A stretch of 64,000 nucleotides of DNA, taken from Alphaproteobacteria bacterium (lineage in GTDB: Bacteria > Pseudomonadota > Alphaproteobacteria > JAAXGF01). This document shows, one piece after another, positions 611 through 48,884 of this stretch (its first letter is position 1; every line of letters starts with the position of its first letter). Position numbers and translations under genes: made by a program. The notes below the pieces were generated by a model. It saw only the letters and a program-made list of their open reading frames with translations. It had not been told where the DNA came from and did not search any database. Where the stretch lies: positions 2,016,001-2,080,000 of the forward strand of contig CAUVXB020000002.1 of NCBI GenBank assembly GCA_963555825.3, read 5' to 3'.

Positions 611-948
611 GCTGCGTCTCCTCTAAAATCAAGCGGTCGGAATGGTTACAACGAACAGCACTGTCATTGCAATTGCCCGCTGCGGGCGACTTGCGACCCA
701 GACTGTGTAAAAACGCCGGCAAATACCACTAACAGGAGAGTGTCAAGTCAATTCTTCTATAGAGCCCTCATGATAAGATGTTGATTTGGTCGAACCTACA
801 AATTCGAGAATTCAGAGAAAATCGTGCCAATAGCGCTCGGGGGCGGTTTTTACACATGGCGTAACTCGGGGATCGGGCACTGCTCTCCTTAATGTAGCAA
901 CGACCGGCATGGGCCGGGCGAGCACACTGAAAGAGCAGGAGAGCAGCT

Positions 949-1978
949 ATGGAACTGTATGTTGGAATGGATGTATCGCTCAAGGAGACCTCGATCTGCG
1001 TGGTCGATGACAACGGCGAGATCGTGTCCGAGGGCGTGGTGATCTCGGAGCCGGCGGCAATCGCGGCGTATATCAGGACAACGGCGCCGCACGCAAAGCG
1101 CATCGGTCTGGAGACCGGTCCGACGACGACCTGGCTGTGGCATGAGCTCAGGGCGCTCGGCTTGCCGGTGATCTGCATCGATGCGCGTCATGCCAAGGCG
1201 GCGCTGTCGATGCAGATCAACAAGAGCGACCGGAACGATGCCGCCGGGATCGCGCGGGTCATGCAGTGCGGTTGGTACAAGGAGGTCCAAGTCGAGCGTG
1301 GCGTGCCACGAGATACGGGCCGTCCTGAACAGCCGGGCCCAGTTGGTCAAGATCAAGCGTGATCTCGAGAACCAGATCCGTGGCTTGCTCAAGAACCTCG
1401 GCCTCGTCATCGGCAAGGCGGGCGGCAATGTCTTCCGTCGCCGGGTCGAAGAGCTGCTTGGCGGGCAGGGTCTTTTGTCGGAGGCCGTTCGGCCCCTTCT
1501 GGAAGTCCGCGAGAAGGTCGGCCGAGAGATCGCCGCGCTCTATCGCAAGCTGCTGGGCCTGGCGCGGAACGACGAGGACAGCAGACGTTCCATGACGGTT
1601 CCAGGCATCGGGCCGATCACCGCCTTGGCCTTCCACTCGGCGATCGACGAGCCGAGCCGCTTCCGACGTTCCCGGAGTGTCGGCGCGTACATCGGGCTGA
1701 CGCCGCGCCGCCATGCTTCCGGCGAGGTCGATTGGACGGGGCGGATCTCCAAATGCGGCGATCGAATGCTCAGGACCTACCTCTTCGAGGCGGCCGGCGT
1801 GCTGCTCACCCGGGTGCCGCGATGGTGCGCGCTCAAGGCCTGGGGTCACAGGTTGTGGAAACGCATCGGCTTCAAGAAGGCCAAGATCGCCGTGGCACGG
1901 AAGCTGGCGGTCATCCTCCATCGCATGTGGCGTGATGGAACGGACTTCATCTGGTCAACCAAAGAGGCGGCCGCATAG
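949..1978 (+). pseudogene. IS110-family DEDD transposase/recombinase, frameshifted near 1291-1296
   Basis: N-terminal YVGMDVS..GLETGP..KSDRNDA in ORF 949-1362; C-terminal VPGIGPITA..GLTPRRHASGE..GRISKCGD..AVARKLA in ORF 1181-1978. Confidence 0.88.
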
Positions 1979-1984
1979 GGAAAC

Positions 1985-2190
1985 AACGTCCAAGCATTCC
2001 GCGAGAGCGGAACCGATGTCCCTGTCGGGACGGCGGCGTCGGCGAGATCGATCCAGGCTTTGCGATGCCTCACCGAGGCAAGCGCGCTTCACACATTGAT
2101 CCGCCAACGTCCTCCAACGCCATCATGCGGAGGGCCGAGCCCCTACCGCGGAGAGAACAGTGAACCCGGCAGGTACGTCACGGAGAGCTT
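1985..2190 (+). ncRNA. Putative bridge/seek RNA of the IS1111-type element
   Basis: Contains TCCAGGCT (2052-2059), TTCACACA (2088-2095), ACGCCAT (2117-2123) and AGAGAACA (2152-2159), matching both arms of the target and of the circle junction; RNA ends not determined. Confidence 0.75.
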
Positions 2191-2329
2191 GACAACCAAC
2201 CCCCGAGTTAGAGAACAGCCTGGACCCTCAGCAGACATTCATCGCTTTGAGTAAGGGGCACGATTCAGTGCCGATTGACATATAGTCTTCATGAATTTGA
2301 AGGTTATCTGGGAAATGTCGGCTTGATGT

Positions 2330-3643
2330 ATGACCTTAGGCAGCGGTGATTTTCCAACGGATCGACATGGCTGGGCGGAACTCCTGCCGGAACGGCAAGC
2401 GAGCCCGCCTTTAAGTGGAGCTCACAGGGTGTCGTGGGCGGTGATCGGGGCCGGGGTGACCGGTCTGGCCAGCGCCTGCCGTCTGGCCGAGCTCCACCCC
2501 GATCATGAGATCATGCTGCTGGATGCGCGTTTGGTTGGCCAGGGGGCCTCGGGGCGCAATTCCGGTTTTGCCGTCGCCGTCAGTCATTTCGATGGCGGCC
2601 TCGAGGCCGACGAGATGGCGAACTATCGTCGGGTCAATCGTATTAACCAAGCCGGTCTGGATCTGTTGCGAGTGCAAGTCGCCACGTCCGCGATTGATTG
2701 CCAATGGCAGGAAGATGGTTTTCACCATACCGCCGCTGATCGGCCGGCAATTCGCGAATGCCGCAATTTCCTGCGCTATCTTGAGGCCATGGAGATCGCC
2801 CATACGCCGCTTGATGCGGAGGCATTGAACGCGCGTCTGGGCACCACCCTTTACCAATCCGGCGTCCACGTCCACAAGGGGGCGCTCCTGCAACCGGCGG
2901 CCTTGGTGCGCGGGCTAGCGGACAATTTGCCCTCCAATGTCAGACTTCATGAACGAAGCCCGGTGCTCAGGATCGAGAATGGCACACCGCTGATTCTCCA
3001 CCTGCCAAATGGCGAGGTGCGGGCCGATAAACTTATTTTGGCGACCAACTACGAGGCGGCGAAACTTGGCTATCTGTGCCGCTATCTGATCGGCACCACC
3101 TTGTCGGGCAGTTTCACACGGACCTTAACTGATGATGAGCTTGCCAGCCTCGGCAGCCGGAAGGAATGGGGGGTTCTCTCGCTACACGGCGGCGGCGCGA
3201 CCGTGCGGCTGACGGCGGACCGGCGAATATGCCTGCGCAACGCGGCGGAGTATAATGGTGCCGCATTGCTGTCCGATAGGCAATTGGCCCATCGACAATC
3301 CATCCATCGGGCCGGGTTCGAGAAGCGCTTTCCGAAACTGGCCCATGTAGCGTTCGACTATGCCTGGTCCGGTGTCGAAGGGATCAGCCGCAACGGCGCC
3401 AATTTTTTCGGTCGCCAACGGGACAATATTTATCTCGCGGGCGGCTATAACGGTTCCGGCGTCAGCCGGGGGACGGCCTTCGGCACGGCGCTCGTAGACT
3501 ATGCCAGTGGCGGTCATTCACCGCTGATTGACGATTGTCTGGCCTCAGCACCTGGCGCCTGGATTCCGCCCAGGCCTTTCCTCGACATCGGCGCCCTTCT
3601 GACCGTCCGATCGCGTTTCCGGGGCGTTGGTTTGGATCGATAA
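2330..3643 (+). CDS. FAD-dependent oxidoreductase (DAO/PuuB-like)
   Basis: VIGAGVTG Rossmann motif, GASGRNSGF, GYNGSGV; paralog of 43197-44516. Confidence 0.88.
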   Translation: MTLGSGDFPTDRHGWAELLPERQASPPLSGAHRVSWAVIGAGVTGLASACRLAELHPDHEIMLLDARLVGQGASGRNSGFAVAVSHFDGGLEADEMANYRRVNRINQAGLDLLRVQVATSAIDCQWQEDGFHHTAADRPAIRECRNFLRYLEAMEIAHTPLDAEALNARLGTTLYQSGVHVHKGALLQPAALVRGLADNLPSNVRLHERSPVLRIENGTPLILHLPNGEVRADKLILATNYEAAKLGYLCRYLIGTTLSGSFTRTLTDDELASLGSRKEWGVLSLHGGGATVRLTADRRICLRNAAEYNGAALLSDRQLAHRQSIHRAGFEKRFPKLAHVAFDYAWSGVEGISRNGANFFGRQRDNIYLAGGYNGSGVSRGTAFGTALVDYASGGHSPLIDDCLASAPGAWIPPRPFLDIGALLTVRSRFRGVGLDR

Positions 3644-3754
3644 GGTCGCGAAGATGTACAGAGTCTGGAACGCGTCCTGGACCCTGAAGGAGCTCGGTTG
3701 GATGTAGTGCGTCGTGTCGGCGCGCGACTTCCCAAACAAACGGGGGGTTAAGGC

Positions 3755-3881
3755 AGGACGTTGCCCAGCGCCCCCATTTCTGCTGATGGCTACACTCGGA
3801 CCCAACGGCCACACCAGAACGATGACCGCTTTCGGACGATACGCCGACAGACAGGCCCACTTCGCGCTTTCAACACGTCAT
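3755..3881. repeat. Cluster of degenerate ~29-bp palindromes (family P) at island border
   Basis: e.g. ATGACCGCTTTCGGACGATACGCCGACAG (3822-3850), with more degenerate units at 3786-3815 and 3853-3881. Confidence 0.55.
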
Positions 3882-3976
3882 AGTGCCAACCGGGACACGG
3901 CCCATCGTTCGCCGCCTTTGACGCGCACCGGAACGCTCCAGTAGAGTGAGCGCCCTTTATTCGAGCCGGGCGGGAC

Positions 3977-6286
<2,310 letters not shown>

Positions 6287-6878: not shown

Positions 6879-6978
6879 TTGTCCGGTCATCTTTACGGGT
6901 AAAGATGACCTGCGCTCAATCGCCGCGCATGCCACTCTTATGGGATCAAAGCTGGCCGAACGGTCGGCGGCCGGCGGT
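6879..6978 (+). repeat. Structured intergenic repeat, family A copy 1
   Basis: GGTCATCTTT-ACGGGT-AAAGATGACC hairpin followed by TGCGCTCAATCGCCGCGCATGCC...TGGCCGAACGGTCGGCGG. Confidence 0.9.
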
Positions 6979-8096
6979 CAGGCGGCGATCGCCTCGCTGG
7001 CCGGCTGATACGGGTGGCCGAGGTCGCGCGCGACCGCCTCGTAGGTCACGTTGCCGTGGTGCACGTTGAGGCCCGCCAAGAGATGCGCGTCGTCGGCCAG
7101 CGCCTGCTTGTAGCCCTTGTCGGCGAGCGCAACGGTGAACGGCAGCGTCGCGTTGTTGAGCGCGAACGTCGAGGTCCGCGCGCAAGCGCCCGGCATGTTG
7201 GCGACGCAGTAGTGCACCACCGAATCGACGATGTAGGTCGGCTCGGCGTGGGTCGTCGCCTTGCTGGTCTCGGCGCAGCCGCCCTGGTCGATGGCGACGT
7301 CGACGAGCACCGAGCCGCGCTGCATCTTCGTGACCATCTCGGCGGTGACCAGCTTGGGCGCCTCGGCGCCCGGCACGAGCACCGCGCCTACCACGAGGTC
7401 GGCGCCCAAGACATGCTGCTCGACCGACTCGACGGTCGAATAGATCGTGTTGAGCGTCGGGCCGAACTGCATGTCGAGCTCCTGCAGGCGACGCACCGAG
7501 CGGTCGATCACCGTGACCTGCGCCTCGAGCCCCATCGCCATGCGCGCCGCGTTGGTGCCAACCACGCCGCCGCCGATGATCACGACGCGCGCCGCGGCGA
7601 CGCCCGCCACGCCGCCCAGCAGCATGCCGCGGCCGCCCTGTTCCATCTCGAGGCAGTGGGCCCCGGCCTGGATCGACATGCGCCCGGCGACCTCGCTCAT
7701 CGGCGCCAGCAGCGGCAGGCCGCCGCGGTCGTCGGTGACCGTCTCGTAGGCGATCGCGACGCAGCCCGCGCCCATCAGCAGCTCGGTTTGCCCGGGGTCG
7801 GGTGCGAGGTGCAAATAGGTGAACAGCAGCTGGCCCTCGCGCAGCATGCGGCACTCGTTCGGCTGCGGCTCCTTGACCTTGACCACCATGTCGGCGACAG
7901 CGAAGATTTCCTCGGCCGTGTCGACGATGCGCGCGCCGGACGTGACGTAGTGCTCGTCGTCGAGGCCGATGGCGCGACCGGCGTTGGCCTGAACGATGAC
8001 CTCGTGGCCGTGATGAACCAGTTCACGCACGCTCGACGTGATCAGTCCGACCCGGTACTCGTGCGTCTTGATCTCCTTAGGGACTCCTATCAGCAT
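6978..8096 (-). CDS. ald: Alanine dehydrogenase
   Basis: [46 protein letters not shown]. Confidence 0.96.
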
Positions 8097-8889: not shown

Positions 8890-9191
8890 GATCGGCGCGC
8901 CATCTTGTCGATTGCTTCGGTTCTCAATGCATAGACCACGTCGTCGAGGGCACCGCAACACGATCCGCCGACGGCCGCTTCCGGGCGCTCGGCGGGCGCC
9001 AATCATGCGGCGCTTCGACACCGGCTAACCGCCAAGCGGAGACCCTTCACGAGGCGACGCTATCCAAGCGCAGAAATGGCGATCACGGTCGGCCAGTGAC
9101 ATCCCGGCTAGGCTGCTGAATGTAAGCCGAGACTCTTCCTCTTCGGTTGGTTTAACGTCCCGATTACTTCCATTCGGGGATCGGGGCCGAC

Positions 9192-11243: not shown

Positions 11244-11293
11244 CCCGAGCGCTGGTCATGGCGCTCGTGCAATTCTAAGGTTTTTCGCCGATA

Positions 11294-11369
11294 TCGCCTG
11301 CTTCCGAGCAGATTGCGGACCTCGCGCCGCTGGGCGCCGGATGTCGGCTCATAGCCACAGGCAGACATT
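11294..11369. repeat. Two family-P palindromes at left border of accessory island
   Basis: TCGCCTGCTTCCGAGCAGATTGCGGACCT (11294-11322) and ATGTCGGCTCATAGCCACAGGCAGACATT (11341-11369). Confidence 0.7.
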
Positions 11370-15434: not shown

Positions 15435-15481
15435 ACCGCTGCCCCTATTGTTAATGTCTACTGCGGGTCCAGACTGTGTAA

Positions 15482-16656
15482 TACCAGTGAGCCTATGAAA
15501 TCACCTTCATGATCCATGGATAGGCGCAGAGGGTTCGCATACGATCCGGTTCTGCGATGAGGTCGATCCATGCTTGGCAACAGGCGTCGATGATGGCCTC
15601 GGTGTCGTCGAGGACGCGGAGCGATAGGAAGCGTTCGCGTAGGTAGAGCCAAACCCGCTCGACGGGGTTGAGTTCGGGACTGTAAGGCGGCAACAGCGCC
15701 AAGGTGACGTTGTCGGGGACGGTGAGGGCGCGCTCGTCGTGCCAACCGGCGCCGTCGCACATCATGACGGCGTGCGCATCCTGGTCCAGGGTATCGGCGA
15801 AGTGTGCGAGAAACAGGTCCATGACCTTGGCGTTGACGCTCGGCATCACCAGGGTGACGTCGTCGCCGGTGTCCGGGCGCACGGCGGAGAAGATGTAGGC
15901 CCACTGGTAGCCGATTTGACGCGTCCCGGGGGCACGCTCGCCCCTGCGCCACCACCGGTGACACACCCGGCCCTTGTTGCCGACGCGCGCTTCATCCTGA
16001 AACCACAGCTGTAGGCGCTTGTCGGGATGCGCCGCGGCGGTCGCCTTCAGGATGTCGCGAAGCCCCCTTTTTTGAAGCGCTCCTGCGCTTCGGCGTCCCT
16101 TCGCGGGTGGCTCGGGCGCGCCTTCTGGCGGGAAAATCCCATCCGCCGTAGAACCCGGGTCATGCTCGAGGGGTGGTAGGTCTTGGCGAAGCGCTCCTCC
16201 AGCCAGCGGCACAGATCGGCCCGGGTCCAGGCGCAAACCCCGTCGCGCTCAGGCTCCGGCCCGGCGATGATGACCGCCGCCAGCGCCGCTTCCTCGTCTG
16301 CCGTCAGCCGCCGCGGCGAGTAGCCCTTTGGACGGTCGTGAAGCCCCTCCAATCCCTTTGCATTGTAACGAACAACCGCGTCGCGAAGCGTTTGGCGATC
16401 CATCCCCGCAAGCCGCGCGGCATCAGCCCGGGGCATCTCCTCCAAAGCATTCGCGATCCCATAGGCCCGCGCCGCCGCTCGACCGTACGATTCCACGCGA
16501 GCCCAGCGCCGAAGCTCCAAAGGCGTCAAATCATCCCGTATCTTGAGTGCTGATCCCATGACATCCCCCACATCTGGTGGGAGACCATAGAATCACAATC
16601 CGCCATCATCCGCCATCAATGAATATCCCGAGAGTCAATTCAGGCGCTCACTGGTA
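15482..16656 (-). mobile_element. IS630-family element, copy 1 (1175 bp)
   Basis: IR TACCAGTGAGC / GCTCACTGGTA; two overlapping ORFs. Confidence 0.9.
15493..16571 (-). CDS. IS630 transposase; OrfA (HTH) and OrfB (DDE) joined by probable -1 frameshift
   Basis: WFQDEARVG, CDGAGWH, LPPYSPELNPVE; slippery AAAAAAG at 16067-16073 (minus strand). Confidence 0.88.
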
Positions 16657-16659
16657 TTA

Positions 16660-17834
16660 TACCAGTGAGCCTATGAAATCACCTTCATGATCCATGGATA
16701 GGCGCAGAGGGTTCGCATACGATCCGGTTCTGCGATGAGGTCGATCCATGCTTGGCAACAGGCGTCGATGATGGCCTCGGTGTCGTCGAGGACGCGGAGC
16801 GATAGGAAGCGTTCGCGTAGGTAGAGCCAAACCCGCTCGACGGGGTTGAGTTCGGGACTGTAAGGCGGCAACAGCGCCAAGGTGACGTTGTCGGGGACGG
16901 TGAGGGCGCGCTCGTCGTGCCAACCGGCGCCGTCGCACATCATGACGGCGTGCGCATCCTGGTCCAGGGTATCGGCGAAGTGTGCGAGAAACAGGTCCAT
17001 GACCTTGGCGTTGACGCTCGGCATCACCAGGGTGACGTCGTCGCCGGTGTCCGGGCGCACGGCGGAGAAGATGTAGGCCCACTGGTAGCCGATTTGACGC
17101 GTCCCGGGGGCACGCTCGCCCCTGCGCCACCACCGGTGACACACCCGGCCCTTGTTGCCGACGCGCGCTTCATCCTGAAACCACAGCTGTAGGCGCTTGT
17201 CGGGATGCGCCGCGGCGGTCGCCTTCAGGATGTCGCGAAGCCCCCTTTTTTGAAGCGCTCCTGCGCTTCGGCGTCCCTTCGCGGGTGGCTCGGGCGCGCC
17301 TTCTGGCGGGAAAATCCCATCCGCCGTAGAACCCGGGTCATGCTCGAGGGGTGGTAGGTCTTGGCGAAGCGCTCCTCCAGCCAGCGGCACAGATCGGCCC
17401 GGGTCCAGGCGCAAACCCCGTCGCGCTCAGGCTCCGGCCCGGCGATGATGACCGCCGCCAGCGCCGCTTCCTCGTCTGCCGTCAGCCGCCGCGGCGAGTA
17501 GCCCTTTGGACGGTCGTGAAGCCCCTCCAATCCCTTTGCATTGTAACGAACAACCGCGTCGCGAAGCGTTTGGCGATCCATCCCCGCAAGCCGCGCGGCA
17601 TCAGCCCGGGGCATCTCCTCCAAAGCATTCGCGATCCCATAGGCCCGCGCCGCCGCTCGACCGTACGATTCCACGCGAGCCCAGCGCCGAAGCTCCAAAG
17701 GCGTCAAATCATCCCGTATCTTGAGTGCTGATCCCATGACATCCCCCACATCTGGTGGGAGACCATAGAATCACAATCCGCCATCATCCGCCATCAATGA
17801 ATATCCCGAGAGTCAATTCAGGCGCTCACTGGTA
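16660..17834 (-). mobile_element. IS630-family element, copy 2 (tandem, apparently identical)
   Basis: Same IRs and identical ORF translations, offset 1178 bp. Confidence 0.9.
16671..17749 (-). CDS. IS630 transposase (frameshift-joined), copy 2
   Basis: Translations identical to copy 1; slippery site at 17245-17251. Confidence 0.88.
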
Positions 17835-18006
17835 TAAGAACGTTTGCTGCGTGATCTGTACGGCGCGTCTTTGGCTTCGATGATCCGTCGCGGCGGGTAT
17901 TCCGGGATTAAGGATTTTCGCCACTCGTGCGGACCTGTCGGCCGGCTGGCGCCGGTGTGAGCTGCGATTTGGCCGGATATGGGCGCAATTTGCGGCGCAG
18001 AGAGGC

Positions 18007-19449
18007 CTATGCGGTCCTCATCGCCGCGATCAGCGGGTCGATGCCCGTGATGTTCATGACGCGCTTGAGATTGTAGGCCAGCACGTGCAGGGCCATCTCG
18101 GTCCTCACCCGTTTCAGCGTCTTCGTCTGGAAATGCGTCGCGCCCATCCAGGACTTGATGGTGCCGAAGGGATGCTCGGCCGTCTCGCGCCGCCGACGCA
18201 TCGCCTCCGGGTGCTCGTCGAGCCGCCTCTCGACGGCCTCGAGAACATGCTCGTGCTGCCAGCGGGTGATGCGGCGCTGCTTGGCCGTGGTGCAGCGATG
18301 CTTGATGGCGCATCCCTGACAGGCGTTGGTCCAGTAGCGCCGCATGCTCAGCCCCCTCTCCTGGCTGGTGAAGCGGTAGACCAAACGCTCGCCGGCCGGG
18401 CAGCGATAGACATCGTCGGCGGCCAGATAGACGAAGTCCTGTTTGCCGAAGCGGCCCTTGGCCTTGGCTCCAGAGGTCAGCGGCTTAGGCAATGTGACGG
18501 TGATGCCGGCCTCATCGCAGGCCAGAATCTCCTTGCCGTTGTAGTAGCCGCGATCGGCAACGACATCCAACTCGTCGGTCTCCAGAGCCGCCTTGGTCCG
18601 CTTCGCCATGGCTGAGAGCTGGGCGCGGTCGGTGCCCTGATTGGTCACCTCGTGGGCGACGATCAGGTGGTGCTTGGTGTCGACGGCGGCCTGAACGTTG
18701 TAGCCGACCACGCCGGAACCCCGGCCGCTCGTCGCCATCGAGCGGGCATCGGGATCGCTCAGAGAGATCTGCTGGTCCGGGCTCGCACGCCGCTCGACTT
18801 CAAGCGCCTTCAGGCGCCGCATCTCCTCCTTGAGGATCGCGATCTTGTCGGCCAGACGAGTCGTCTTGGTCGTGCGCGCCAGCGACGGCTCTTGCCGGTC
18901 GGCGCTGTCCAACTGGTCCAGATAGCGCGCAACGCTCTCCTCGATCTGCGCCACCCGCCGCGCCATCTTGGCCCGCGTGAAGTTCCTGTCCCGGCTGTTG
19001 ACCGCCTTGAACTTCGAGCCATCGATCGCCACGCTCGCCTCGGCGAACAGCCCGAGTTGCCGGCACAGCGCGACGAACCGGGCGCAGACCTTGCGGATCG
19101 CACGGCCGTTGTCCTTGCGGAAGTCGGCGATCGTCTTGTGATCCGGCGCCAGCCGGCCGACCAGCCACATCACTTCCACATTGCGCCCGGCCTCCCTCTC
19201 GAGCCGACGGCTCGACTGAACCCGGTTGAGATAGCCGTAGATGTAGAGCTTCAACAAATCGCAAGGATGATAGGCCGGCCTGCCGGTCGCCAGCGGCTCG
19301 ACCCGGTCGAACCCGAGGCCGCCAAGATCGAGCTCATCGACGAAGACGTCGATCGCCCGAACCGGGTTGTCGTCGCCGATCCAGTCTTCCAGGCGCTCCG
19401 GAAACAACGTGCCCTGGCTGCGATCGACACCCTCGACAAAACGCTTCAT
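18007..19449 (-). CDS. IS1182-family transposase
   Basis: GRPAYHP..LLKLYIYGY..SSRRLE, PDHKTIADFR, AIDGSK, SDPDAR, GYNVQ, ADRGY, EHPFGTIK. Confidence 0.92.
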   Translation of the reverse strand: MKRFVEGVDRSQGTLFPERLEDWIGDDNPVRAIDVFVDELDLGGLGFDRVEPLATGRPAYHPCDLLKLYIYGYLNRVQSSRRLEREAGRNVEVMWLVGRLAPDHKTIADFRKDNGRAIRKVCARFVALCRQLGLFAEASVAIDGSKFKAVNSRDRNFTRAKMARRVAQIEESVARYLDQLDSADRQEPSLARTTKTTRLADKIAILKEEMRRLKALEVERRASPDQQISLSDPDARSMATSGRGSGVVGYNVQAAVDTKHHLIVAHEVTNQGTDRAQLSAMAKRTKAALETDELDVVADRGYYNGKEILACDEAGITVTLPKPLTSGAKAKGRFGKQDFVYLAADDVYRCPAGERLVYRFTSQERGLSMRRYWTNACQGCAIKHRCTTAKQRRITRWQHEHVLEAVERRLDEHPEAMRRRRETAEHPFGTIKSWMGATHFQTKTLKRVRTEMALHVLAYNLKRVMNITGIDPLIAAMRTA

Positions 19450-19544
19450 CAGACCCTCCCGCCAAAGCACGAGAGAATCATAACACCATCGACGTTTTTA
19501 CACAGTCTGGGTCAGCTGCAGACCTACGGCGAAGTTGGGTTGGG

Positions 19545-19573
19545 CGTCCGCTTTCGAGCGGTAGGCGGGCATT
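19545..19573. repeat. Family-P palindrome at right border of island
   Basis: CGTCCGCTTTCGAGCGGTAGGCGGGCATT. Confidence 0.7.
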
Positions 19574-19605
19574 GGCGGCGCAGATCAGCCGTTGGATTTG
19601 TACGA

Positions 19606-41243: not shown

Positions 41244-41338
41244 TTGTTTCCGGTCACCTTCACTTCGTGAAGCTGACCTGCGCTCAGTCGCCGCGCATGC
41301 TTCCGCCGAACGGTCGACGGCCCGCAGTCGCGGGCTGG
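41244..41338 (+). repeat. Family A repeat, copy 3 (lacks the 14-bp loop module)
   Basis: GGTCACCTTCACTTCGTGAAGCTGACC-TGCGCTCAGTCGCCGCGCATGC..GCCGAACGGTCGACGGCCCGCAGTCGCGGGCTGG. Confidence 0.88.
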
Positions 41339-41474
41339 TGGCATCCAGCCGATGACAGTTGGCTGGATAGCGCGTTGATCGCGCGCGCGTACCGGTCGCA
41401 TCACGGGGCCAGTCGTGGTATGATGGCGCAGTCCACAACCCCAGTACCCCTATGCAGTTTCGGAGAGTATTCCC

Positions 41475-42065: not shown

Positions 42066-42099
42066 GCCAGCCGACGCCAACAGCGCGCGGCAGCCGGCC

Positions 42100-43047
42100 A
42101 TGAGCCTCGCCGTCGCCTTCCAGATGGACCCGATCGAGGGCGTCGACATCGACGCCGATTCGAGCTTCGTCTTGGGCCTCGAGGCGCAGGCGCGGGGCCA
42201 CCGCCTCTTCCACTACCTGCCGCGTGACCTGGCGATGATCGACCGCCGGGTCGTCGCCCGCGTCCGGCCGATGGAATTGCGCCGCGAGAAGGGCAATCAC
42301 GCGACGCTCGGCGCGCCGGAAATGAGCGATCTGGCGCTGATGGACGTCGTCATGCTGCGCCAGGATCCGCCGTTCGATATGTCCTACATCACGACGACGC
42401 ATCTCCTCGAACACATCCACCCGGCGACGCTGGTGGTCAACGACCCGATGCAGGTGCGCAACGCGCCCGAAAAGCTGTTCGCCAACCACTTCGAAGGGCT
42501 GTTGCCGCCGACACTGATCACCGCCGACCCCGAGCTGGTGCGCGAGTTCCGCGCCGAGCATTTGGACATCATCTTGAAACCGCTCTATGGCAACGGCGGC
42601 GCCGGCGTCTTCCACGTCATGCCCGACGACGAAAACCTCAACGCGCTGCTGGAGATGTTCACACTGATGTTCCGCGAGCCGATCATCGTACAGCGCTACC
42701 AGCCCGAGGTGCGTCAGGGCGACAAGCGCATCATCCTGATCGACGGCGAGCCGGCCGGCGCGATCAACCGCGTGCCGCCGCCGGGCGAGGCGCGCGCCAA
42801 CATGCACGTCGGCGCGGTGCCGTTGAAATCCGACATCGACGGCCGCGAGCGCGAGATCTGCGCCGCGATCGGCCCGACGCTCAAGGAACGCGGCCTGATC
42901 TTCGTCGGCATCGACGTGATCGGCGGCTATCTGACCGAGATCAACGTCACCTCGCCGACCGGCCTGCAGGAGATCGACCGCTTCGACGACGTCAACCTCG
43001 AAGGCCGCATCTGGGACGCCATCGAGGGACGGATAGAGCGGCGATAG
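42100..43047 (+). CDS. gshB: Glutathione synthase
   Basis: [26 protein letters not shown]. Confidence 0.96.
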
Positions 43048-43054
43048 AGAATAA

Positions 43055-43173
43055 TTGTTACGGTCATCTTTGCTCTGCAAAGATGACCTGCGCTCAATCG
43101 CCGCGCATGCCAATCTATATCCCACAAGGACTGGCCGAACGGTCGGCGGCCCGCGGTCGCAGGCTGGTAGATT
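43055..43173 (+). repeat. Family A repeat, copy 4
   Basis: GGTCATCTTTGC-TCT-GCAAAGATGACC followed by the conserved core. Confidence 0.9.
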
Positions 43174-43196
43174 TCGACGGACGGCTCGGCCGGGGC

Positions 43197-44516
43197 CTAC
43201 GCCTCGTGCCTTGCCCGCAGCAGTTCCCAGGCGAAGCGGGCGCGGACGCCGAGGTCGAGGAAGGGCCTGGGCGGCAGCTTGTCGGGCGTGCCCAGGCTCG
43301 CCATGTCGGCGATAAGATGGTTGTCCTCGCCGCACGCCATGTCGGCGGCGAGGACGCCGGCGATGGTGCCCTTGGTGACGCCGACCGCGTTCTGGCAGAC
43401 CGCCGCATAGACGTTGGGCGCGACCCGGCCGAAGCCCGGCGCGCCGTTGCGCGCGAGGCAGAGGTAGCCGGTCCAGGTGTGCTCCATCTCGACCGCCGAC
43501 AGCATCGGAAAGCGCTTGTCGAAATGCCGCTTGTGGTCGCGCTGGATCTGGCGGCGGCGCGCGTCGGACTGGCGCATGCCGGGGCAGAAGTGGATGTTCT
43601 GGCGGATCAGCAGGCGGTGGTCGCGGGTCAGGCGCATGGTGACGCCGGCGAAGGCGTTGGCCGGCGTCAGGCCCCAGTCGTCGGCGCCGCCGAGCGCCGC
43701 GCGCTCGACCGCGCTCAGCCGCCGGCTCAGGCTGGCATGCGCGGCGAAGGCCAGCAGGCGCCCCCGGTAGAAGCCGAAGCGCTCGGCGAAGCCGTTGACG
43801 GCGATGATCATCTTGGGCGCGAAGACCCGCCCCGCTGGCGTCGTCAGCGTCACGCCGTTGCGGTAGTCGACCTCGGTGACCGGTGAGTGCTCATAGAGCG
43901 TAACGGCGGCCGGCAGGCTGTCGCCGAGGCCGCGGGTCAGCGCCGCCGGGTTCATCAGCGCGCCGCCCGGCGTGTAGATCGCGCGCGTGAAAAAGGGCGT
44001 GCCGATTTCGCCAGCGAGATCGTCTTTCTCGACCCAGCGGTAGGGTTCGCCGAGCGCCTCGAGCTCCCGGGCGAAGGGCTCGAGCACTTGCGCGACACCC
44101 TTGTCCGAGACCGCCGCGTGGTACTTGCCGCGCCGGCTCCAGTCGCAGGCGATGGCGTGGTCGGCGATCTGTTTCTCGAGGTAGGCGATGGCGGCGCGCG
44201 CCAGCCCCATGAAACGCCGCGAGCCGTCGAGTTCCTCCATCGAGCCGCCGATGTTGTGCGGCAGGTCGATGGCGAAGCCCGAGTTGCGGCCCGACGCGCC
44301 CTCGCCGACCTCTTGTGCCTCGATCAGCGCAATCCTGTCGTTCGGCCGGTTTTCGGCCAGCCGCCGCGCCGCGGCGAGGCCCGCGAAACCGGCGCCGACG
44401 ACCACCCAATCGGCGCGCACCTCGCCGGCGAGGCTCGGCTTGGGCGTGCGTTGGGGCAGGATGCGGCTCCAGCCATTGGCGCTGTCGTCGCTGGGCAGCA
44501 GATCGATCTTCGGCAT
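43197..44516 (-). CDS. FAD-dependent oxidoreductase (DAO/PuuB-like)
   Basis: VVGAGFAG, GASGRNSGF, NPAALTRGL. Confidence 0.9.
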   Translation of the reverse strand: MPKIDLLPSDDSANGWSRILPQRTPKPSLAGEVRADWVVVGAGFAGLAAARRLAENRPNDRIALIEAQEVGEGASGRNSGFAIDLPHNIGGSMEELDGSRRFMGLARAAIAYLEKQIADHAIACDWSRRGKYHAAVSDKGVAQVLEPFARELEALGEPYRWVEKDDLAGEIGTPFFTRAIYTPGGALMNPAALTRGLGDSLPAAVTLYEHSPVTEVDYRNGVTLTTPAGRVFAPKMIIAVNGFAERFGFYRGRLLAFAAHASLSRRLSAVERAALGGADDWGLTPANAFAGVTMRLTRDHRLLIRQNIHFCPGMRQSDARRRQIQRDHKRHFDKRFPMLSAVEMEHTWTGYLCLARNGAPGFGRVAPNVYAAVCQNAVGVTKGTIAGVLAADMACGEDNHLIADMASLGTPDKLPPRPFLDLGVRARFAWELLRARHEA

Positions 44517-44647
44517 GTCCCGGCCCTTGCGCTTCCAAGCCGCGCATCATAGGGCAGCCGCGGGTTCAGCGTATAGCGCCGCCGCCTTGGAGCGCCGAAG
44601 GTCGGGGCCGTGTGCGCCTGACGTCGTGCCTTGACGCGCGCCGCAAC

Positions 44648-44723
44648 CGTCCGCTTTCCGAGCAACAGCGGACGCCATCGCCTGTCATGTCGGAGGCCCG
44701 GAAAATGACCCGAACCCGCCATT
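44648..44723. repeat. Two family-P palindromes at left border of island
   Basis: CGTCCGCTTTCCGAGCAACAGCGGACG (44648-44674); minus-strand AATGGCGGGTTCGGGTCATTTTCCGGGCCT (44694-44723). Confidence 0.72.
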
Positions 44724-44767
44724 CCGGCCCGCCCGCCTGGCGCAGGCCGTCTACGGCGAGGCAACGA

Positions 44768-46285
44768 TTAGTCCAGGATACTCACTCTACGCAGGGCGTC
44801 TTGCAGGATCGGTGACATCGATGTCCAAGCACCCCAATTGCGAGTCAGATCGCGCCACTTCGATATCCTGAATTCCGGATTCTGGGCCTGAAACTTGTCC
44901 GCCGTGGCATGAGCATCCGCCAGACGGCCCAGCCGGACCAAACACGTTATCCGGCACATTTGAAAGAACGCGCTGCTTGGACTCTTCCGTAGCCCCTGAT
45001 CCGCGTATTCCAAGCTTTCTTCAAAATGATTGAGTACGAGATGTGCCTTGGAGATTGCCATCTCACAGCGAAAACTTTGAGGGTCCCGAGGACTGAGACG
45101 CAGCGCCGTCTCGGCAAGCTTGATCGCCCTTCGCGCATCGCCATGGTAAGATTCGAGCAGCGCTAGACTGGCCCAGGCCCACGCGAAGCTCGGACATTGA
45201 CGGGTCACGTCTTCTACCAGCGACATCGCGCGGTGATTTTCATCGCTCATGAATCCAATCGCGTATCCGGCATAGGCTCGCGTCTCGGCATCGGCTTCGG
45301 GACTCATGAGCGCCTCCTCGGCCAGGCGAATCGAGGTCTCGCGTTGCGCTTCGGTCGGTGCGACGTAATGCCACCCGATTAGGGTCGTGCACCAGGCCCT
45401 AACGGCTTTCGCTTTCGCGTAATCGGGCGCGTGTGCGATCGCCTGGTCCAGCAAGCCGATGGCAGCGTCGATCTGAACGCTGTTCAAGGCCGCACGCGCT
45501 CTCAGATAAAGATCATATGCGGTCAGATTGTTCGGGCGCTTTCGTGTGGCACGCTCGATCTCAGCGAGCTGGATCTTCGGTCCAATTGCATTGACAACGG
45601 CTTCCGTGATCTCGTCCTGGAGGTCGAACACATCGTCCAGTTTCGATTCGTAACGGTCGGCCCAAATTTGGGTGGCAGTCTCCGTATCGACCAACTGTCC
45701 ATTCACACGCAGGCGGCCGCCAGCACGACGAACGCTGCCCTCGAGCACATAGCGAATGCCCAGTTCGTCGCCGACTTCGCGGACATCAATTGCCAAGCCC
45801 TTGTATATGAACGAGGAATTTCGAGCGATGACGAACAACCACGGGACGAAGGATAGGGCCGTTATGATTTCCTCACTGAGTCCGTCCGCAAAGTACTCCT
45901 CCTCGGGAACGCCCGAGATATTCGTGAAGGGCAGTACCGCGATCGAGGGCCTGTCGGGACGCGCGTGTCTATCGACATCCACTGGTCGGTCAACGGACTC
46001 GATACCGCCGAGAAAACGGTAGCCGCGACCGCGTACGGTTTCGATAAATATGGGATGCTTGGGGTCGTCGCCAAGGGCCAGGCGCAGATCGTGGACGTAC
46101 TCCTTGATCAGCCCCTCGGACACGAAAAGATCGCGCCAGACGCCCTCGAGGATGTCGTCCTTGGTAAGCAAGCGGTTCGGATTACTGACGAACAAACGCA
46201 GCAACTGAAAGGCTTTGTTGCTGATCTGCACGGGCTGATCGCCATGCCAAAGGCGCTCATCCCCGAGATCGAGCCTGTAGGTCAT
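44768..46285 (-). CDS. OmpR-type winged-helix + TolB-like + TPR regulator
   Basis: LRLALGD..IETVRGRGYRF, PSIAVLPFTNIS, YFADGLSEEII, TPR-like C-terminus; GGAGG RBS. Confidence 0.87.
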   Translation of the reverse strand: MTYRLDLGDERLWHGDQPVQISNKAFQLLRLFVSNPNRLLTKDDILEGVWRDLFVSEGLIKEYVHDLRLALGDDPKHPIFIETVRGRGYRFLGGIESVDRPVDVDRHARPDRPSIAVLPFTNISGVPEEEYFADGLSEEIITALSFVPWLFVIARNSSFIYKGLAIDVREVGDELGIRYVLEGSVRRAGGRLRVNGQLVDTETATQIWADRYESKLDDVFDLQDEITEAVVNAIGPKIQLAEIERATRKRPNNLTAYDLYLRARAALNSVQIDAAIGLLDQAIAHAPDYAKAKAVRAWCTTLIGWHYVAPTEAQRETSIRLAEEALMSPEADAETRAYAGYAIGFMSDENHRAMSLVEDVTRQCPSFAWAWASLALLESYHGDARRAIKLAETALRLSPRDPQSFRCEMAISKAHLVLNHFEESLEYADQGLRKSPSSAFFQMCRITCLVRLGRLADAHATADKFQAQNPEFRISKWRDLTRNWGAWTSMSPILQDALRRVSILD

Positions 46286-46470
46286 TTCCTCCACCTTGGT
46301 CACCCGATAGCGATGGAATGCAATCGTCGTCACGGGCCGGCACGGCAACGCTAATCACCGGCGCCGGCCTCAGAATCCACCAAAATTCCACCCCGATTCC
46401 ACACGCCGCGCCTCAGGCAGGACGATGATAGACATTCGTACGACCTTACGCCAAGACAAGGAGGAAAACG

Positions 46471-47322
46471 ATGCGACTCGAAAGATTTCTTAGAGCGACA
46501 GCGCTGTTGGGTATGGTCGACCTTGCGCCAGGCATCGCTTGGGCGGCAACCACGACCGAGGTGCAAGAACGCCTCGCCGACGGCGCGGCGGACGTCACGT
46601 TCAGTGTGTTGGCGACGGTCTCGGTCGCCACCTCGGTGACCGGTGCCGAGGCGGTGACGGAGGTCGTGTTGCCGCCAGCCGCACAGATTCCTTTTCAGCA
46701 GTATCTGGACGCGCCGCGCACGCTTGGCTCCAAGGCATTTGCCATCGACCCCGAAAGCGGGCAATCGGGACAGAGCACACGGCTCAGCCGACCCGGAATT
46801 GCGGTCGACCAAGCGATCGAGGACTGTCGGCGGCGATCCGCGCGCGACTGTCGCCTCTATGCGGTCGGCGACATCGTCGTGCTCGGCCTGGCCGACTGGA
46901 AGACCGAGGTCGCGATTATGCTCGATCAGGTCATGCCCGGCGCGACCAACGGCGATCTAGAGGCGGTGACGTCGGGCGACGGCGGCAAGGTAGCCACGGC
47001 ACTCAGGCGCTCGGTGCTCCACGCCGCCGCCGAGATGGGCAGCACCGACGCGGTCGCCGCGATGCTCGATCGGGGCATCGACATCGATGCCGGTTCGGAC
47101 ATCGGCGCGACGGCGCTGTCCTACGCGGCGAGCCGCGGCCAACACGAGGCCGTCGCGCTGTTGCTCGAACACGGCGCCGACGTCAACGCTCGCAACCGCG
47201 TCGGCAAGACGGCGCTGGGCCTCGCCGTGCTGGCGAACAATTTCGCGCGGCACCGCGACTACCTCGCCGCCGGTCACGTCGCGGTCATCCGCCTGCTCGA
47301 GGACGCCGGCGGGACCGAGTGA
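46471..47322 (+). CDS. Secreted ankyrin-repeat protein
   Basis: Signal peptide-like N-terminus; LHAAA, TALSYAASRG..LLEHGADVN, TALGLA; AGGAGG RBS. Confidence 0.82.
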   Translation: MRLERFLRATALLGMVDLAPGIAWAATTTEVQERLADGAADVTFSVLATVSVATSVTGAEAVTEVVLPPAAQIPFQQYLDAPRTLGSKAFAIDPESGQSGQSTRLSRPGIAVDQAIEDCRRRSARDCRLYAVGDIVVLGLADWKTEVAIMLDQVMPGATNGDLEAVTSGDGGKVATALRRSVLHAAAEMGSTDAVAAMLDRGIDIDAGSDIGATALSYAASRGQHEAVALLLEHGADVNARNRVGKTALGLAVLANNFARHRDYLAAGHVAVIRLLEDAGGTE

Positions 47323-47329
47323 GCGTTGC

Positions 47330-47539
47330 AATTATGCGGCTGTGGGCGCCGACAACGTACAAGCCAAGACCGTCGAGGTTGCCTGAGTGGCAAATCGGTC
47401 GTCATGTCCGGCTGTGGCGAACAGGAGACCTCCAGCAAACCAGGTTGTGAGGTCCGCTCTCTGATCGGAACCAGACCGGGCCGCCGTGTCATCGCGCCTC
47501 GGCCACTCTGGGTCCGCTTAACGCGCTTCAGCGGACGTT
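47330..47539. repeat. Cluster of family-P palindromes between cargo genes
   Basis: ATGTCCGGCTGTGGCGAACAGGAGACCT (47404-47431), AGGTCCGCTCTCTGATCGGAACCAGACC (47450-47477), GGGTCCGCTTAACGCGCTTCAGCGGACGTT (47510-47539). Confidence 0.72.
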
Positions 47540-47907
47540 CATGGCACCGCGTGGCAAACGGTGAACTCTCGACAGAATTTAGCCCGCTTCACCGGCGCGA
47601 TATTCGACTCGGAGACCCTTCCCCCTTGCGCAAACTCGACCCCGCCGCCGCCCTCCGGTGAGGGCGACACGTGGCAGTGACATCGCGCTGATGTCATGTG
47701 GGGTTCTCGGAGCGGGTGAGGCGATCACCGGCTAATCGGTGGCAAGTCGGTGCGGGTCGAATGCGCGAGCGCTGCGAGGTTGCATCGTCGCGTTTTTGGC
47801 CAGCTGCGCAAGGGATGCCGTTTTCTCGCCGGTGGAACGGTGGTACGATTTCCCTGAATTTGGGGGTAATCTGGGAAATGCCCGCTTATGACATTCGTGG
47901 CCGCTCG

Positions 47908-48274
47908 GTGAAGTATCTGGTCGCGTTCCTTCTTGCGCTTGTGCCCGCCGGCCCAGCGGCCGCCGAAACGCACACGTCCGCAAGCGCGATGGCCACCTCG
48001 ATGGCGCAGCATTTCGTGCAGGAACAGTTCATGTTCGGAGCCATGGGCGATGTCCATTACCATATCGAGTTCGACATCTCCTACCTGGTGCCGCAGCCCG
48101 AACCGAATTACTGGGCCGTCGTCGGCGGCTTCGTATCCGACCAGAGTACCCCCCAACAGCTTCGTCGCCGCGGTCCGGCTCATTTGTCCGGACCAGGCCA
48201 GGGTAGCGTGTTGGCGGCTCGAGAAACTTGCCATAAACCGAAAGATCGTCGTCGATCTGGGACAGCCGCTTTGA
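47908..48274 (+). pseudogene. Secreted hypothetical protein, frameshifted in a C run near 48149-48154
   Basis: Signal peptide MKYLVAFLLALVPAGPAAA; protein-like reading continues in another frame (NSFVAAVRLIC..CWRLEKL). Confidence 0.5.
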
Positions 48275-48413
48275 GTATGGCCGGGCTGCCCAATACCCTG
48301 CCTTTTCGGGCCGACCAATGGTCGGTGGATGTACGCGAAACCCGGCGTCGGCGCGTCGCACAATAGATGGTTTTCGCGACAATCGATGCTCAAACGACGA
48401 ATAGGATAATGAG

Positions 48414-48764
48414 ATGACTGCAATCAATCTTTCAAAAAAGTTGGAAACCTTCTCTGAGTATTGGTCACCAAAAATCGTATCCTCATTTAATGGGCATGAT
48501 GTGATGGTGGTTAAGGTGAAGGGTGAATTTGTTTGGCACTCTCACGACGATACAGACGACTTTTTCATGGTGTTGGATGGCAATCTAAAAATCGAGATGA
48601 AAGAAGGCGATGTCACTCTAGAAGCGGGTGATTTGTATGTTGTTCCAAAGGGCGTTGAGCATCGACCTGTTGCGGAGGAGGAAGCCCATTTGCTTTTGAT
48701 TGAACCGCACGGGACACCAAACACTGGTGATGAAGCAACAGCCGCGAAGAAAGTGGGAATCTAA
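48414..48764 (+). CDS. Cupin domain protein (low GC)
   Basis: EYWSPKIV, GEFVWHSHDDTDDFF, VPKGVEHRP. Confidence 0.9.
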   Translation: MTAINLSKKLETFSEYWSPKIVSSFNGHDVMVVKVKGEFVWHSHDDTDDFFMVLDGNLKIEMKEGDVTLEAGDLYVVPKGVEHRPVAEEEAHLLLIEPHGTPNTGDEATAAKKVGI

Positions 48765-48810
48765 AATCCCTATCCGTTGCAAAAAGGATCCGATTCGAGC
48801 GGGCCTGCTT

Positions 48811-48884
48811 ATGACGGCTCTTGGTTGGTTGCCGACCTCGTGGAGCCTCGACCGCACTGTCCGTTTGCCGATCGGAAGCCGACG
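48811..48884. repeat. Two family-P palindromes at right border of island
   Basis: ATGACGGCTCTTGGTTGGTTGCCGACCT (48811-48838), TGTCCGTTTGCCGATCGGAAGCCGACG (48858-48884). Confidence 0.68.

What the first reader, a model, noticed from the sequence alone, without database searches (positions are those of the whole stretch)
641..48884. ~29-bp palindrome family delimits accessory genes: candidate undescribed gene-cassette system
Seen: about 15 imperfect palindromes of similar length, consensus roughly (A)ATGTCCGCTTT-N7-9-AAGCGGACAT(T). They lie at 641-668, 682-698+2227-2239, 3786-3881, 11294-11322, 11341-11369, 15453-15469+19514-19525, 19545-19573, 44648-44674, 44694-44723, 47404-47431, 47450-47477, 47510-47539, 48811-48838 and 48858-48884. 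They come in pairs or clusters at both borders of the 11.3-19.6 kb and 44.6-48.9 kb islands, at the right border of the 0-3.9 kb island and between cargo genes (GFA, FAD oxidoreductase, cyclase-TPR, wHTH-TPR, ankyrin, cupin). I did not see them in the 20-44 kb or 55-64 kb core stretches. Several cargo genes are visibly lower in GC than the core. The units are not attC (no long GTTRRRY-bounded hairpin), not CRISPR and not GTAG REPs, and no recombinase is encoded in the window. Inference: they are recombination or insertion sites through which 1-2-gene cassettes accumulate, served by an enzyme encoded elsewhere.
Basis: partly seen in the sequence, partly recalled or inferred. Interest (0 to 1): 0.82.

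Follow-up and report, generated by a model that had tools for sequence, protein, structure and literature searches.

The report
Palindromic repeats that attract insertion sequences
The short palindromes are a real family of between-gene repeats, found mainly in the foreign-looking, transposon-rich parts of this alphaproteobacterial genome, and they serve as landing sites for insertion sequences; nothing found shows that they capture gene cassettes.

Summary
The family is real. An iterated 33-nt matrix finds 146 copies at 18 bits or more, against 3 in a simulated genome, and 145 of 146 lie outside called genes. In the window, 7 listed sites are strong members, 4 are weak, 1 fails, and one of two "split" units is verified on both sides.

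The window does hold recombinases: five transposase genes. An IS1182-family element and its miniature derivative insert at the palindrome axis with a 4-bp duplication. 18 of 20 full copies show this, and 28 of 41 ends carry the half-site at one fixed offset.

The units sit in IS-rich, low-GC3 DNA, whereas a second repeat family sits in native DNA. Relatives show that window 8.9-19.6 kb and 43.05-51.4 kb are insertion zones, with units at most seams.

The cassette tests failed:
- no units at empty sites or beside shared cargo in relatives
- duplication ends do not coincide with units
- no associated RAYT, integrase or IntI

Verdict: these are REP/BIME-like repeats that act as IS targets, a new member of a known kind.

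The parts
699..2222 (.). Miniature element with IS1182-type ends (about 160 nt; its left part is 699-856). It is interrupted by an IS110-family element (842-2216, transposase frameshifted: 949-1362 and 1181-1978). The 4-nt direct repeat GACC lies at 695-698 and 2223-2226.
   Evidence: blast: 698-856 recurs alone at 6 loci; 842-2216 recurs at 99% identity; sequence; IS110 family RNA-guided transposase.
2227..2239 (+). Right half of a unit cut by the element above. GCAGAC lies at 2231-2236, 7 nt from the element end.
   Evidence: The proposed left half (682-698) does not fit.
3786..3900 (+). Copy of a ~115-nt composite repeat whose centre is a subfamily unit (3820-3852, CGATGACCGCTTTCGGACGATACGCCGACAGAC, 26.9 bits).
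   Evidence: 13 further copies at 75-90% identity.
8969..9001 (+). Weaker unit (17.9 bits) about 80 nt beyond the end of LigB homology, at the left border of the 8.9-19.6 kb insertion zone.
   Evidence: hit at C2:2024969; homology with relatives ends at 8873-8901.
11292..11324 (+). Unit (23.1 bits) between the SDR gene and the GFA gene.
11341..11369 (+). Unit of the third class (loop TAGCC): ATGTCGGCTCATAGCCACAGGCAGACATT. It is weak on the main matrix (0.6 bits).
   Evidence: same loop class in G001: ATGTCCGCTAATAGCCATAAGCGGACAA.
15453..15469 (+). Left half of a unit split by the IS1182-family element. The direct repeat GGTC is at 15466-15469.
15470..19509 (-). IS1182-family insertion sequence (transposase 18007-19470). 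It is itself interrupted by two tandem IS630-family copies (about 15477-17832).
   Evidence: NF033551, 452.9 bits, cut-off 270; NF033545; D1; 23 near-identical copies in the genome.
19514..19525 (+). Right half of the split unit (AGCTGCAGACCT). The direct repeat GGTC is at 19510-19513.
19542..19574 (+). Unit (32.5 bits), 33 nt from the stop of the flavin-reductase gene, at the right border of the insertion zone.
44645..44677 (-). Unit (23 bits) between the DAO gene and the wHTH-TPR gene.
47404..47540 (-). Three-unit module: 47508-47540 (24.3 bits), 47448-47480 (23.1 bits) and a degenerate third unit at 47404-47431.
48811..48887 (-). Unit 48855-48887 (21.3 bits) plus a degenerate neighbour at 48811-48838.

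Best explanation
The units belong to a lineage-restricted family of repetitive extragenic palindromes of the REP/BIME kind. They are 25-33-nt imperfect palindromes with arms (A)YGTCYGC...GCRGACRT. They are copied as small multi-unit modules and number about 150 in this genome.

Shown: they are the specific landing site of an IS1182-family insertion sequence and of a ~160-nt transposase-less derivative. [quoted passage not shown] IS110-family elements also sit at or near them.

Inferred: in a genome where 22% of the DNA is multi-copy IS, these landing pads collect ISs. IS-rich spots then become the seams where foreign or relocated 1-3-gene segments are joined, through IS-mediated or repeat-mediated rearrangement or through import together with the units. 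That would explain why the units appear to delimit accessory genes.

Not identified: the enzyme that copies the units themselves. No dedicated transposase is associated with them.
For: Family and placement:
- 146 hits at >=18 bits against 3 simulated.
- 145 of 146 lie outside called genes.

Modules:
- 28 neighbouring pairs, 22 at exactly 61 nt and 3 at 60 nt.
- The aligned spacers looked to me like three recurring types; this was read by eye from the alignment, not computed.
- G001 has clean triplets with a 46-47-nt period.

IS targeting:
- 28 of 41 IS1182/MITE ends carry GCRGACVT (<=1 mismatch), all at offset 7. The controls are 435 of 20,000 random positions and 1 of 136 ends of an IS630-like element.
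- 18 of 20 uninterrupted copies have identical 4-nt direct repeats. The variants AGCC, GGAC and GTTC change together on both sides.
- Flanks differ between copies while the IS is 99-100% identical, so the flanks are target, not IS.
- Reconstructed empty sites read like intact units, for example AATGTCCGCTTCGGGTCACCTGCGGACAT.

Genome context:
- 22% of the genome is >=3-copy repeat.
- 53 of 146 units lie within 50 nt of such a repeat, against 6.8% of random intergenic positions; 124 of 146 lie within 2 kb, against 56%.
- Flanking genes have median GC3 0.827, against 0.876 genome-wide (p 1e-9) and 0.901 for a control repeat family (p 2e-27).

Precedent:
- REPs as IS targets broken at the palindrome axis with short direct repeats (PMC1525189, abstract and Results read).
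- IS1182-family IS1272 targets inverted repeats (PMC5678879, passages).
Against: - IS targeting explains closeness to ISs. It does not by itself explain the low GC3 of the non-IS neighbours.
- Units lie at both borders of the 8.9-19.6 kb zone and at 3 of 3 internal seams of the 43-51 kb zone. A recombination-site model predicts this as well.
- The arms show no compensatory change. Watson-Crick counts equal the expectation for independent arms (58 against 59.7; 88 against 95.5; Fisher p 0.68). So a hairpin kept by selection is not shown.
- What multiplies the units is unknown.
- Only 9 of 20 IS copies have recognisable halves on both sides (10 have one half, 1 has none).
- Gene calls come from a crude caller of my own.
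Confidence: 0.78

Rival explanations
1. The units are core sites of a site-specific recombinase encoded elsewhere. In G001 the clean units are 11-nt arms around a 6-7-nt centre, and three centre classes stand in tandem. Like-with-like recombination could therefore insert or swap 1-3-gene cassettes.
For: - The 28-29-nt units in G001 have three recurrent centre classes (GGGTCA, CGGGGGT, TAGCCA) in fixed order, and they flank single genes, once in inverted orientation.
- Units lie at the borders and seams of the insertion zones in the window.
- Runs of single genes separated by units occur elsewhere, for example C2:2640484-2648804.
- The arms vary independently, as expected for protein-binding half-sites rather than hairpins.
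- The GFA gene (208-656) is 96% identical in another genus whose core is about 77% identical.
Against: - No unit beside the shared GFA, DAO or wHTH-TPR/ankyrin genes in relatives, and none at 13 empty-site loci.
- The 96% GFA segment is not bounded by units on its left side in the window. In G001 only a truncated unit lies 29 nt away.
- 11 of 2120 duplication ends lie near units.
- One of 45 tyrosine-recombinase genes lies next to a unit, and it is a pseudogene. There is no IntI.
- Unit orientation relative to genes is mixed in the window.
- The outer borders of the 43-51 kb zone have no unit.
- A roughly 1%-divergent strain keeps the same arrangement across two unit clusters (record 26).
Confidence: 0.07
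2. The units work mainly as RNA or DNA structure at gene ends (terminators, mRNA 3' stabilisers, as proposed for many REPs). Their link with accessory DNA and ISs would then be secondary.
For: - Extragenic placement (145 of 146).
- Excess between convergent genes: 30 of 116 clusters, against 651 of 4225 gene pairs.
- Several strong units fold as hairpins of -11 to -13 kcal/mol.
- The literature reports REPs downstream of ORFs (PMC3733652, passages).
Against: - No compensatory change in the stems.
- Fold z-scores of single units are modest (-0.5 to -2.5).
- No Rfam match.
- The units are almost absent from native, high-GC3 gene neighbourhoods, where a second repeat family sits. A general terminator role does not predict this.
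- No expression data were examined.
Confidence: 0.1
3. The listed palindromes are chance GC-rich hairpins and not a family.
For: - A loose two-half-site definition is at chance level (5704 against 5512).
- One listed site (641-668) fails outright and four more are weak on the matrix.
Against: - 146 against 3 hits at >=18 bits.
- An IUPAC pattern with <=3 mismatches gives 84 real, 0 simulated and 0 for the reversed control.
- Fixed 61-nt spacing.
- Fixed position relative to IS ends.
Confidence: 0.01

Closest known systems
REP sequences as specific IS targets ('type 1 association': ISPsy8, ISPa11, ISPpu9/10, ISRm22, ISRm19; Tobes & Pareja 2006, PMC1525189; abstract and Results read)
   Same: [quoted passage not shown]
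- Insertion is at the palindrome axis with a short direct repeat.
- The broken unit often lies inside a cluster of units.
- REPs act as hot spots of plasticity.
   Different: - The IS here belongs to the IS1182 family and a miniature derivative uses the same site.
- The association is not 100%: 19 of 20 copies have at least one recognisable half and 9 of 20 have both.
- The palindrome family is a different sequence in an uncharacterised alphaproteobacterial lineage.
IS1272 and other IS1182-family members that target inverted repeats or stem-loops (PMC5678879; passages read)
   Same: - Same transposase family (NF033551).
- The target is a palindrome.
   Different: IS1272 is reported to replace the target stem-loop without a target duplication and without sequence specificity. 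Here both arms are kept, 4 bp are duplicated, and one sequence family is used.
CGTC-tagged REPs of Alphaproteobacteria (Di Nocera et al. 2013, PMC3733652; abstract and passages read, figures not held)
   Same: - Alphaproteobacterial host.
- A YGTC motif at the end of the unit.
- Dimers and clusters.
- Extragenic, with an excess between convergent genes.
- No dedicated transposase known.
   Different: - There the tag is described as unpaired at one end, stems are 8-9 bp and start with A/T pairs, and loops are 4-5 nt.
- Here YGTC pairs with GACR at the other end, the next stem positions are CG, and the centres are 6-13 nt.
- I could not compare with the consensus figure.
REPIN-RAYT systems (Bertels & Rainey 2011, PMC3116915; seen in search listing and abstract only)
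   Same: Short extragenic palindromes occurring as doublets with a fixed spacer and in high copy number.
   Different: - Doublets are in the same orientation in 25 of 28 pairs, not inverted.
- There is no GTAG head.
- None of the three Y1 transposase genes is flanked by units.
Integron gene cassettes (attC/IntI) and Xer-dependent pdif modules of Acinetobacter plasmids (both recalled, no paper read here)
   Same: - Short imperfect palindromes between 1-2-gene segments of accessory DNA.
- The 11-6/7-11 layout of the clean G001 units resembles Xer-type core sites.
   Different: - No IntI.
- No fixed orientation.
- No array next to an integrase.
- No sequence likeness to dif was tested.
- Shared cargo genes in relatives lack the units.

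Membership tests
REP/BIME-type repetitive extragenic palindromes (general kind) | Short (20-40 bp) imperfect palindrome present in many copies | tested here: met
   25-nt core within a 33-nt matrix; 146 copies at >=18 bits against 3 simulated.
REP/BIME-type repetitive extragenic palindromes (general kind) | Extragenic location | tested here: met
   145 of 146 outside genes called by my own codon-usage caller.
REP/BIME-type repetitive extragenic palindromes (general kind) | Clustered, mosaic arrangement with fixed spacers | tested here: met
   28 pairs, 22 at 61 nt. The aligned spacers appeared to fall into three types by eye, not computed. Triplets in G001.
REP/BIME-type repetitive extragenic palindromes (general kind) | Restricted to particular lineages | tested here: met
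   Pattern counts: own genome 84, G001 35, and the other 11 genomes of the family/order 0-3. The stem pattern occurs in 7 of 401 genomes sampled from the class and is multi-copy only in family f51.
REPIN-RAYT system | Single-copy RAYT (Y1 transposase) gene flanked by the REPs | tested here: not met
   3 Y1_Tnp genes. No unit at >=8 bits of relevance within 1.5 kb of any. Y1_Tnp found in 2 of 4 other unit-bearing genomes and not flanked there.
REPIN-RAYT system | Two REPs in inverted orientation forming a long hairpin | tested here: not met
   25 of 28 neighbouring pairs have the same orientation by the asymmetric loop.
REPIN-RAYT system | GTAG-type 5' head | tested here: not met
   The consensus begins YGTC.
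CGTC-tagged REP superfamily | Unpaired CGTC/TGTC/CCTC motif at one end | tested here: inconclusive
   YGTC is present but is complementary to GACR at the other end. The definition comes from passages of PMC3733652; its consensus figure was not seen.
CGTC-tagged REP superfamily | Stem of 8-9 bp starting with A/T pairs; loop of 4-5 nt; CCA-like tail | tested here: not met
   After the tag the stem reads CGCTT and the centres are 6-13 nt.
REP-specific IS insertion (type 1 association) | [quoted passage not shown] | tested here: met
   28 of 41 ends carry the half-site, all at offset 7, against 2.2% of random positions.
REP-specific IS insertion (type 1 association) | Direct repeat generated at the insertion point | tested here: met
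   18 of 20 copies have an identical 4-nt repeat; the variants co-vary on both sides.
REP-specific IS insertion (type 1 association) | All copies of the IS associated with a REP | tested here: not met
   9 of 20 copies have both halves, 10 have one half and 1 has none.
Integron cassette system | Integron integrase IntI in the genome | tested here: not met
   TIGR02249: best match 79 bits, cut-off 265.
Integron cassette system | attC sites of one orientation at the 3' end of each cassette | tested here: not met
   Unit orientation relative to the upstream gene is mixed in the window. No attC model was run.
Xer/pdif-type modules | 28-bp sites with 11-nt arms and a 6-nt centre, resembling dif | tested here: inconclusive
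   The clean G001 units are 28-29 nt with an 11-6/7-11 layout. Likeness to the genome's dif site was not tested, and the definition is recalled.
Xer/pdif-type modules | The same module found in different contexts between such sites | tested here: not met

The most novel reading that the evidence does not exclude
The units are not mere hairpin repeats. They would be core sites (11-nt arms, 6-7-nt centre) of an unidentified site-specific recombinase. Three centre classes stand in tandem, so matching classes on two molecules could swap or insert 1-3-gene segments, a natural form of cassette exchange. This would build the accessory compartment in this genome, in G001 and in a distant alphaproteobacterial family. 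The IS1182 element would exploit the same sites.
Probability: 0.07. Interest if true: 0.8.

Novelty: new member of a known kind. Interest (0 to 1): 0.35.

Why it matters
This is a clear natural example of how a short palindromic repeat family steers transposition. One IS1182-family element, a miniature derivative and IS110 elements use it as a landing pad in a genome that is 22% IS.

Two extragenic repeat families divide the genome between them. One marks native DNA (flank GC3 0.901). The other marks foreign-looking, IS-rich DNA (flank GC3 0.827). That split is less ordinary, and it gives a cheap marker of the accessory compartment in this lineage.

Palindromes with the same stem also occur in a distant family of the class. 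That points to horizontal spread of the repeat or of whatever copies it, and this copying activity is still unknown for alphaproteobacterial REPs. For the cassette idea itself the result is mostly negative.

Tried and rejected
- Rfam: no family at gathering score in the window. None at E<=1 on a canonical module, L072:1200-1700.
- A loose half-site definition is at chance level and was dropped.
- An automatic look at IS110 borders mostly picked up neighbouring ISs. Only subfamily B was usable: 4 of 6 left flanks end in (A)TGTCYGCT or the like. The IS110 link is therefore stated only as partial.
- First count of direct repeats used a 5-nt register and gave 0 of 20. The register was off by one base. 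The 4-nt count is 18 of 20.
- SDR protein as a synteny anchor: its only close relatives are two MAGs at 80-82%, so the gene is itself accessory and was no use as an anchor.
- AlaDH scan: this only showed that the relatives are unnamed alphaproteobacterial MAGs.
- Public runs: 4 runs, all assembled contigs, cover 42000-52500 colinearly. One roughly 1%-divergent record spans 43197-47536. The listed joints have sides of 21-66 nt and none lies at a unit. Contigs cannot show rare forms, so this neither supports nor excludes excision.
- Literature: full-text searches for GTCCGCTTT with AAAGCGGAC (10 papers, none on bacterial repeats) and for GTCCGCTTT with 'palindrom' (5 papers, none relevant) found no description of this sequence family. 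The REP lists in the supplements of PMC3733652 and PMC1525189 might hold it.
- Earlier-findings look-ups by place and by sequence gave nothing.
- The ARAGORN tRNA-Val was not pursued.
- No covariance model was built, because the matrix already separated real from simulated sequence.

Full report
WHAT IS THERE

The listed sites nevertheless look alike.

I took the 11 genomic sites of the form GTCCGC-N13-GCGGAC and iterated a 33-nt matrix. This gave 146 hits at >=18 bits, against 3 in a 3rd-order Markov copy of the genome. An IUPAC pattern with up to 3 mismatches gives 84 real hits, 0 simulated and 0 for the reversed control. The family is therefore real.

Scored site by site:
- Seven listed intervals are strong members (21-32 bits; the null 99.9th percentile is 6.3).
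- Four are weak.
- 641-668 fails.
- A loose definition of the arms is at chance level.

ANATOMY

145 of 146 units lie outside called genes. They come in modules. Of 28 neighbouring pairs, 22 start exactly 61 nt apart and 25 share orientation. By eye, the aligned spacers fall into three types, so whole modules appear to have been copied.

In relative G001 the family is much cleaner. Triplets of 28-29-nt units have the same arms and three different centres (ACGGGTCAA, CGGGGGT, AATAGCCA). They start 46-47 nt apart and stand between single genes. The window's copies are worn versions of it.

Window 3786-3900 is a copy of a separate ~115-nt composite repeat built around a subfamily unit.

The arms show no compensatory change. 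Rfam has no match.

THE WINDOW HOLDS TRANSPOSASES

Pfam and NCBIfam name the following:
- an IS110-family RNA-guided transposase, frameshifted (949-1978)
- an ISKra4-like gene (12229-13620)
- two tandem IS630 copies (about 15477-17832)
- an IS1182-family transposase (18007-19470)

The genome is swamped with ISs. 22% of it is a repeat of >=400 nt present at >=3 copies, in 720 intervals, and there are 47 IS110-family matches.

THE UNITS ARE IS TARGETS

The IS1182-family element (1684 nt when intact) is flanked on the left by ...AATGTCYGCTYNGGTC and on the right by GGTCANNNGCAGACNT.
- 28 of 41 ends of the IS, or of a ~160-nt derivative with the same ends, carry the half-site at one fixed offset. 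The controls are 2.2% of random positions and 1 of 136 ends of an IS630-like element.
- 18 of 20 uninterrupted copies have identical 4-nt direct repeats, and rare variants change together on both sides.
- The flanks differ between copies of an otherwise 99-100% identical IS. They are therefore target, not IS.
- Joined flanks read like the intact Ua-type units of G001.

In the window:
- The derivative, itself hit by the IS110 copy, occupies 699-2222 with the direct repeat GACC. Only its right flank is a recognisable half unit.

This matches the 'type 1' REP-IS association of Tobes & Pareja (PMC1525189). It also fits the known taste of IS1182-family members for inverted repeats (PMC5678879).

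WHERE THE UNITS LIE

- 53 of 146 units are within 50 nt of a multi-copy repeat, against 6.8% of random intergenic positions; 124 of 146 are within 2 kb, against 56%.
- They are over-dispersed: across 62 bins of 100 kb the mean is 2.35 and the variance 9.1, and 21 bins are empty.
- Their non-IS neighbour genes have median GC3 0.827, against 0.876 for all genes (p 1e-9).
- A second extragenic family serves as a control. This is the ~115-150-nt mosaic repeat of the window's core stretches, with 187 hits. It behaves the opposite way: flank GC3 is 0.901 and only 54 of 187 copies are within 2 kb of an IS (p 2e-27).

SYNTENY

No genome of the same genus is held. The 12 genomes of the family share 70-85% DNA identity with the window's core.
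- In 6 of 12, LigB abuts the flavin-reductase gene directly. In 2 more, AlaDH abuts it. Window 8.9-19.6 kb is therefore an insertion zone. It has a 17.9-bit unit at its left edge and units at its right edge.
- In 7 of 12, the gene ending at 43047 abuts ComM. Window 43.05-51.4 kb is therefore a second zone. Its outer borders have no unit, but its three internal seams do.

TESTS OF THE CASSETTE MODEL

- Relatives' empty sites and their copies of shared cargo carry no unit in 78,220 nt. The shared cargo is GFA at 96%, DAO at 83% and wHTH-TPR at 84%. Most of these relatives lack the family altogether, which weakens the empty-site test.
- The 96% GFA segment has no unit on its left in the window.
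- Low-copy duplications do not end at units (11 of 2120 ends).
- No Y1 transposase, tyrosine recombinase or IntI is associated.
- Contigs of four public runs are colinear with the window across the second zone.

DISTRIBUTION AND KINSHIP

The stem pattern GTCCGCTTT-N5-9-AAAGCGGAC occurs in 7 of 401 genomes sampled from the class. It is multi-copy only in family f51, in 3 of 3 genomes, where units also cluster.

The family resembles the CGTC-tagged alphaproteobacterial REPs, which also lack a known transposase. It does not meet their stated stem and loop features. I found no paper that gives this sequence.

VERDICT

This is a REP/BIME-like repeat family that serves as an IS landing pad and marks the accessory compartment. 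It is a new member of a known kind. The cassette reading keeps a small probability.

Noticed in passing
whole genome; window 15477-17832: 22% of the genome (1.34 Mb in 720 intervals) is a repeat of >=400 nt at >=90% identity and >=3 copies. An IS630-like element of ~1185 nt has about 60 copies, several in head-to-tail tandem arrays. One such tandem pair lies inside the window's IS1182 copy.
   Followed up: partly
window 6880-6992, 23490-23634, 41244-41373, 43058-43171, 55522-55629, 57326-57510, 58300-58447: A second, unrelated extragenic mosaic repeat family. It has 187 blast hits, 185 of them intergenic. It sits beside high-GC3 native genes, far from ISs, and is not next to any Y1 transposase gene. 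In the sponge-metagenome contigs its summed depth is 50-200 times that of the flanks.
   Followed up: partly
window 24926-25199 and 55995-56267: Two copies of a ~270-nt element with ~40-nt terminal inverted repeats (91-93% identical to each other). It looks like a MITE.
   Followed up: no
window 208-656; G001:C99:11628-12076: A single GFA-family gene is 96% identical to one in a genome of another genus whose core genes are about 77% identical, which indicates recent horizontal transfer of a ~450-bp one-gene segment. The window holds three GFA paralogues (218-610, 11441-11908, 54766-55410).
   Followed up: partly
window 52951-54907: A stretch of 45-47% G+C in a 65-70% G+C genome encodes a cytidine/deoxycytidylate deaminase-like protein (53397-54290, also matching MafB19-like deaminase) and a 126-aa ORF with no family.
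   Followed up: no
window 51102-51194: ARAGORN calls a 93-nt tRNA-Val(GAC) on the minus strand inside the DUF3179 ORF (49858-51249). It is probably a false call.
   Followed up: no
G000:C2:601578-603959, 2326091-2329931, 3600917-3603298 and others: Tyrosine recombinase genes occur in repeated groups of three adjacent genes, like recombinase-in-trio elements. There are 45 Phage_integrase matches in all.
   Followed up: no
window 44600-48900: Four public runs labelled sponge metagenome hold 0.90-0.96 of the sampled words of this stretch. Runs of three coded organisms hold 0.83-1.00. The ankyrin and TPR genes and the IS load would fit a host-associated lifestyle.
   Followed up: no
G062, G234, G362 (family f51); loci L160, L161: Palindromes with the same arms (ATGTCCGCTTT...AAAGCGGACAT), also clustered, occur in 3 of 3 sampled genomes of a distant family of the same class. 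They are absent from nearly all other sampled families.
   Followed up: partly
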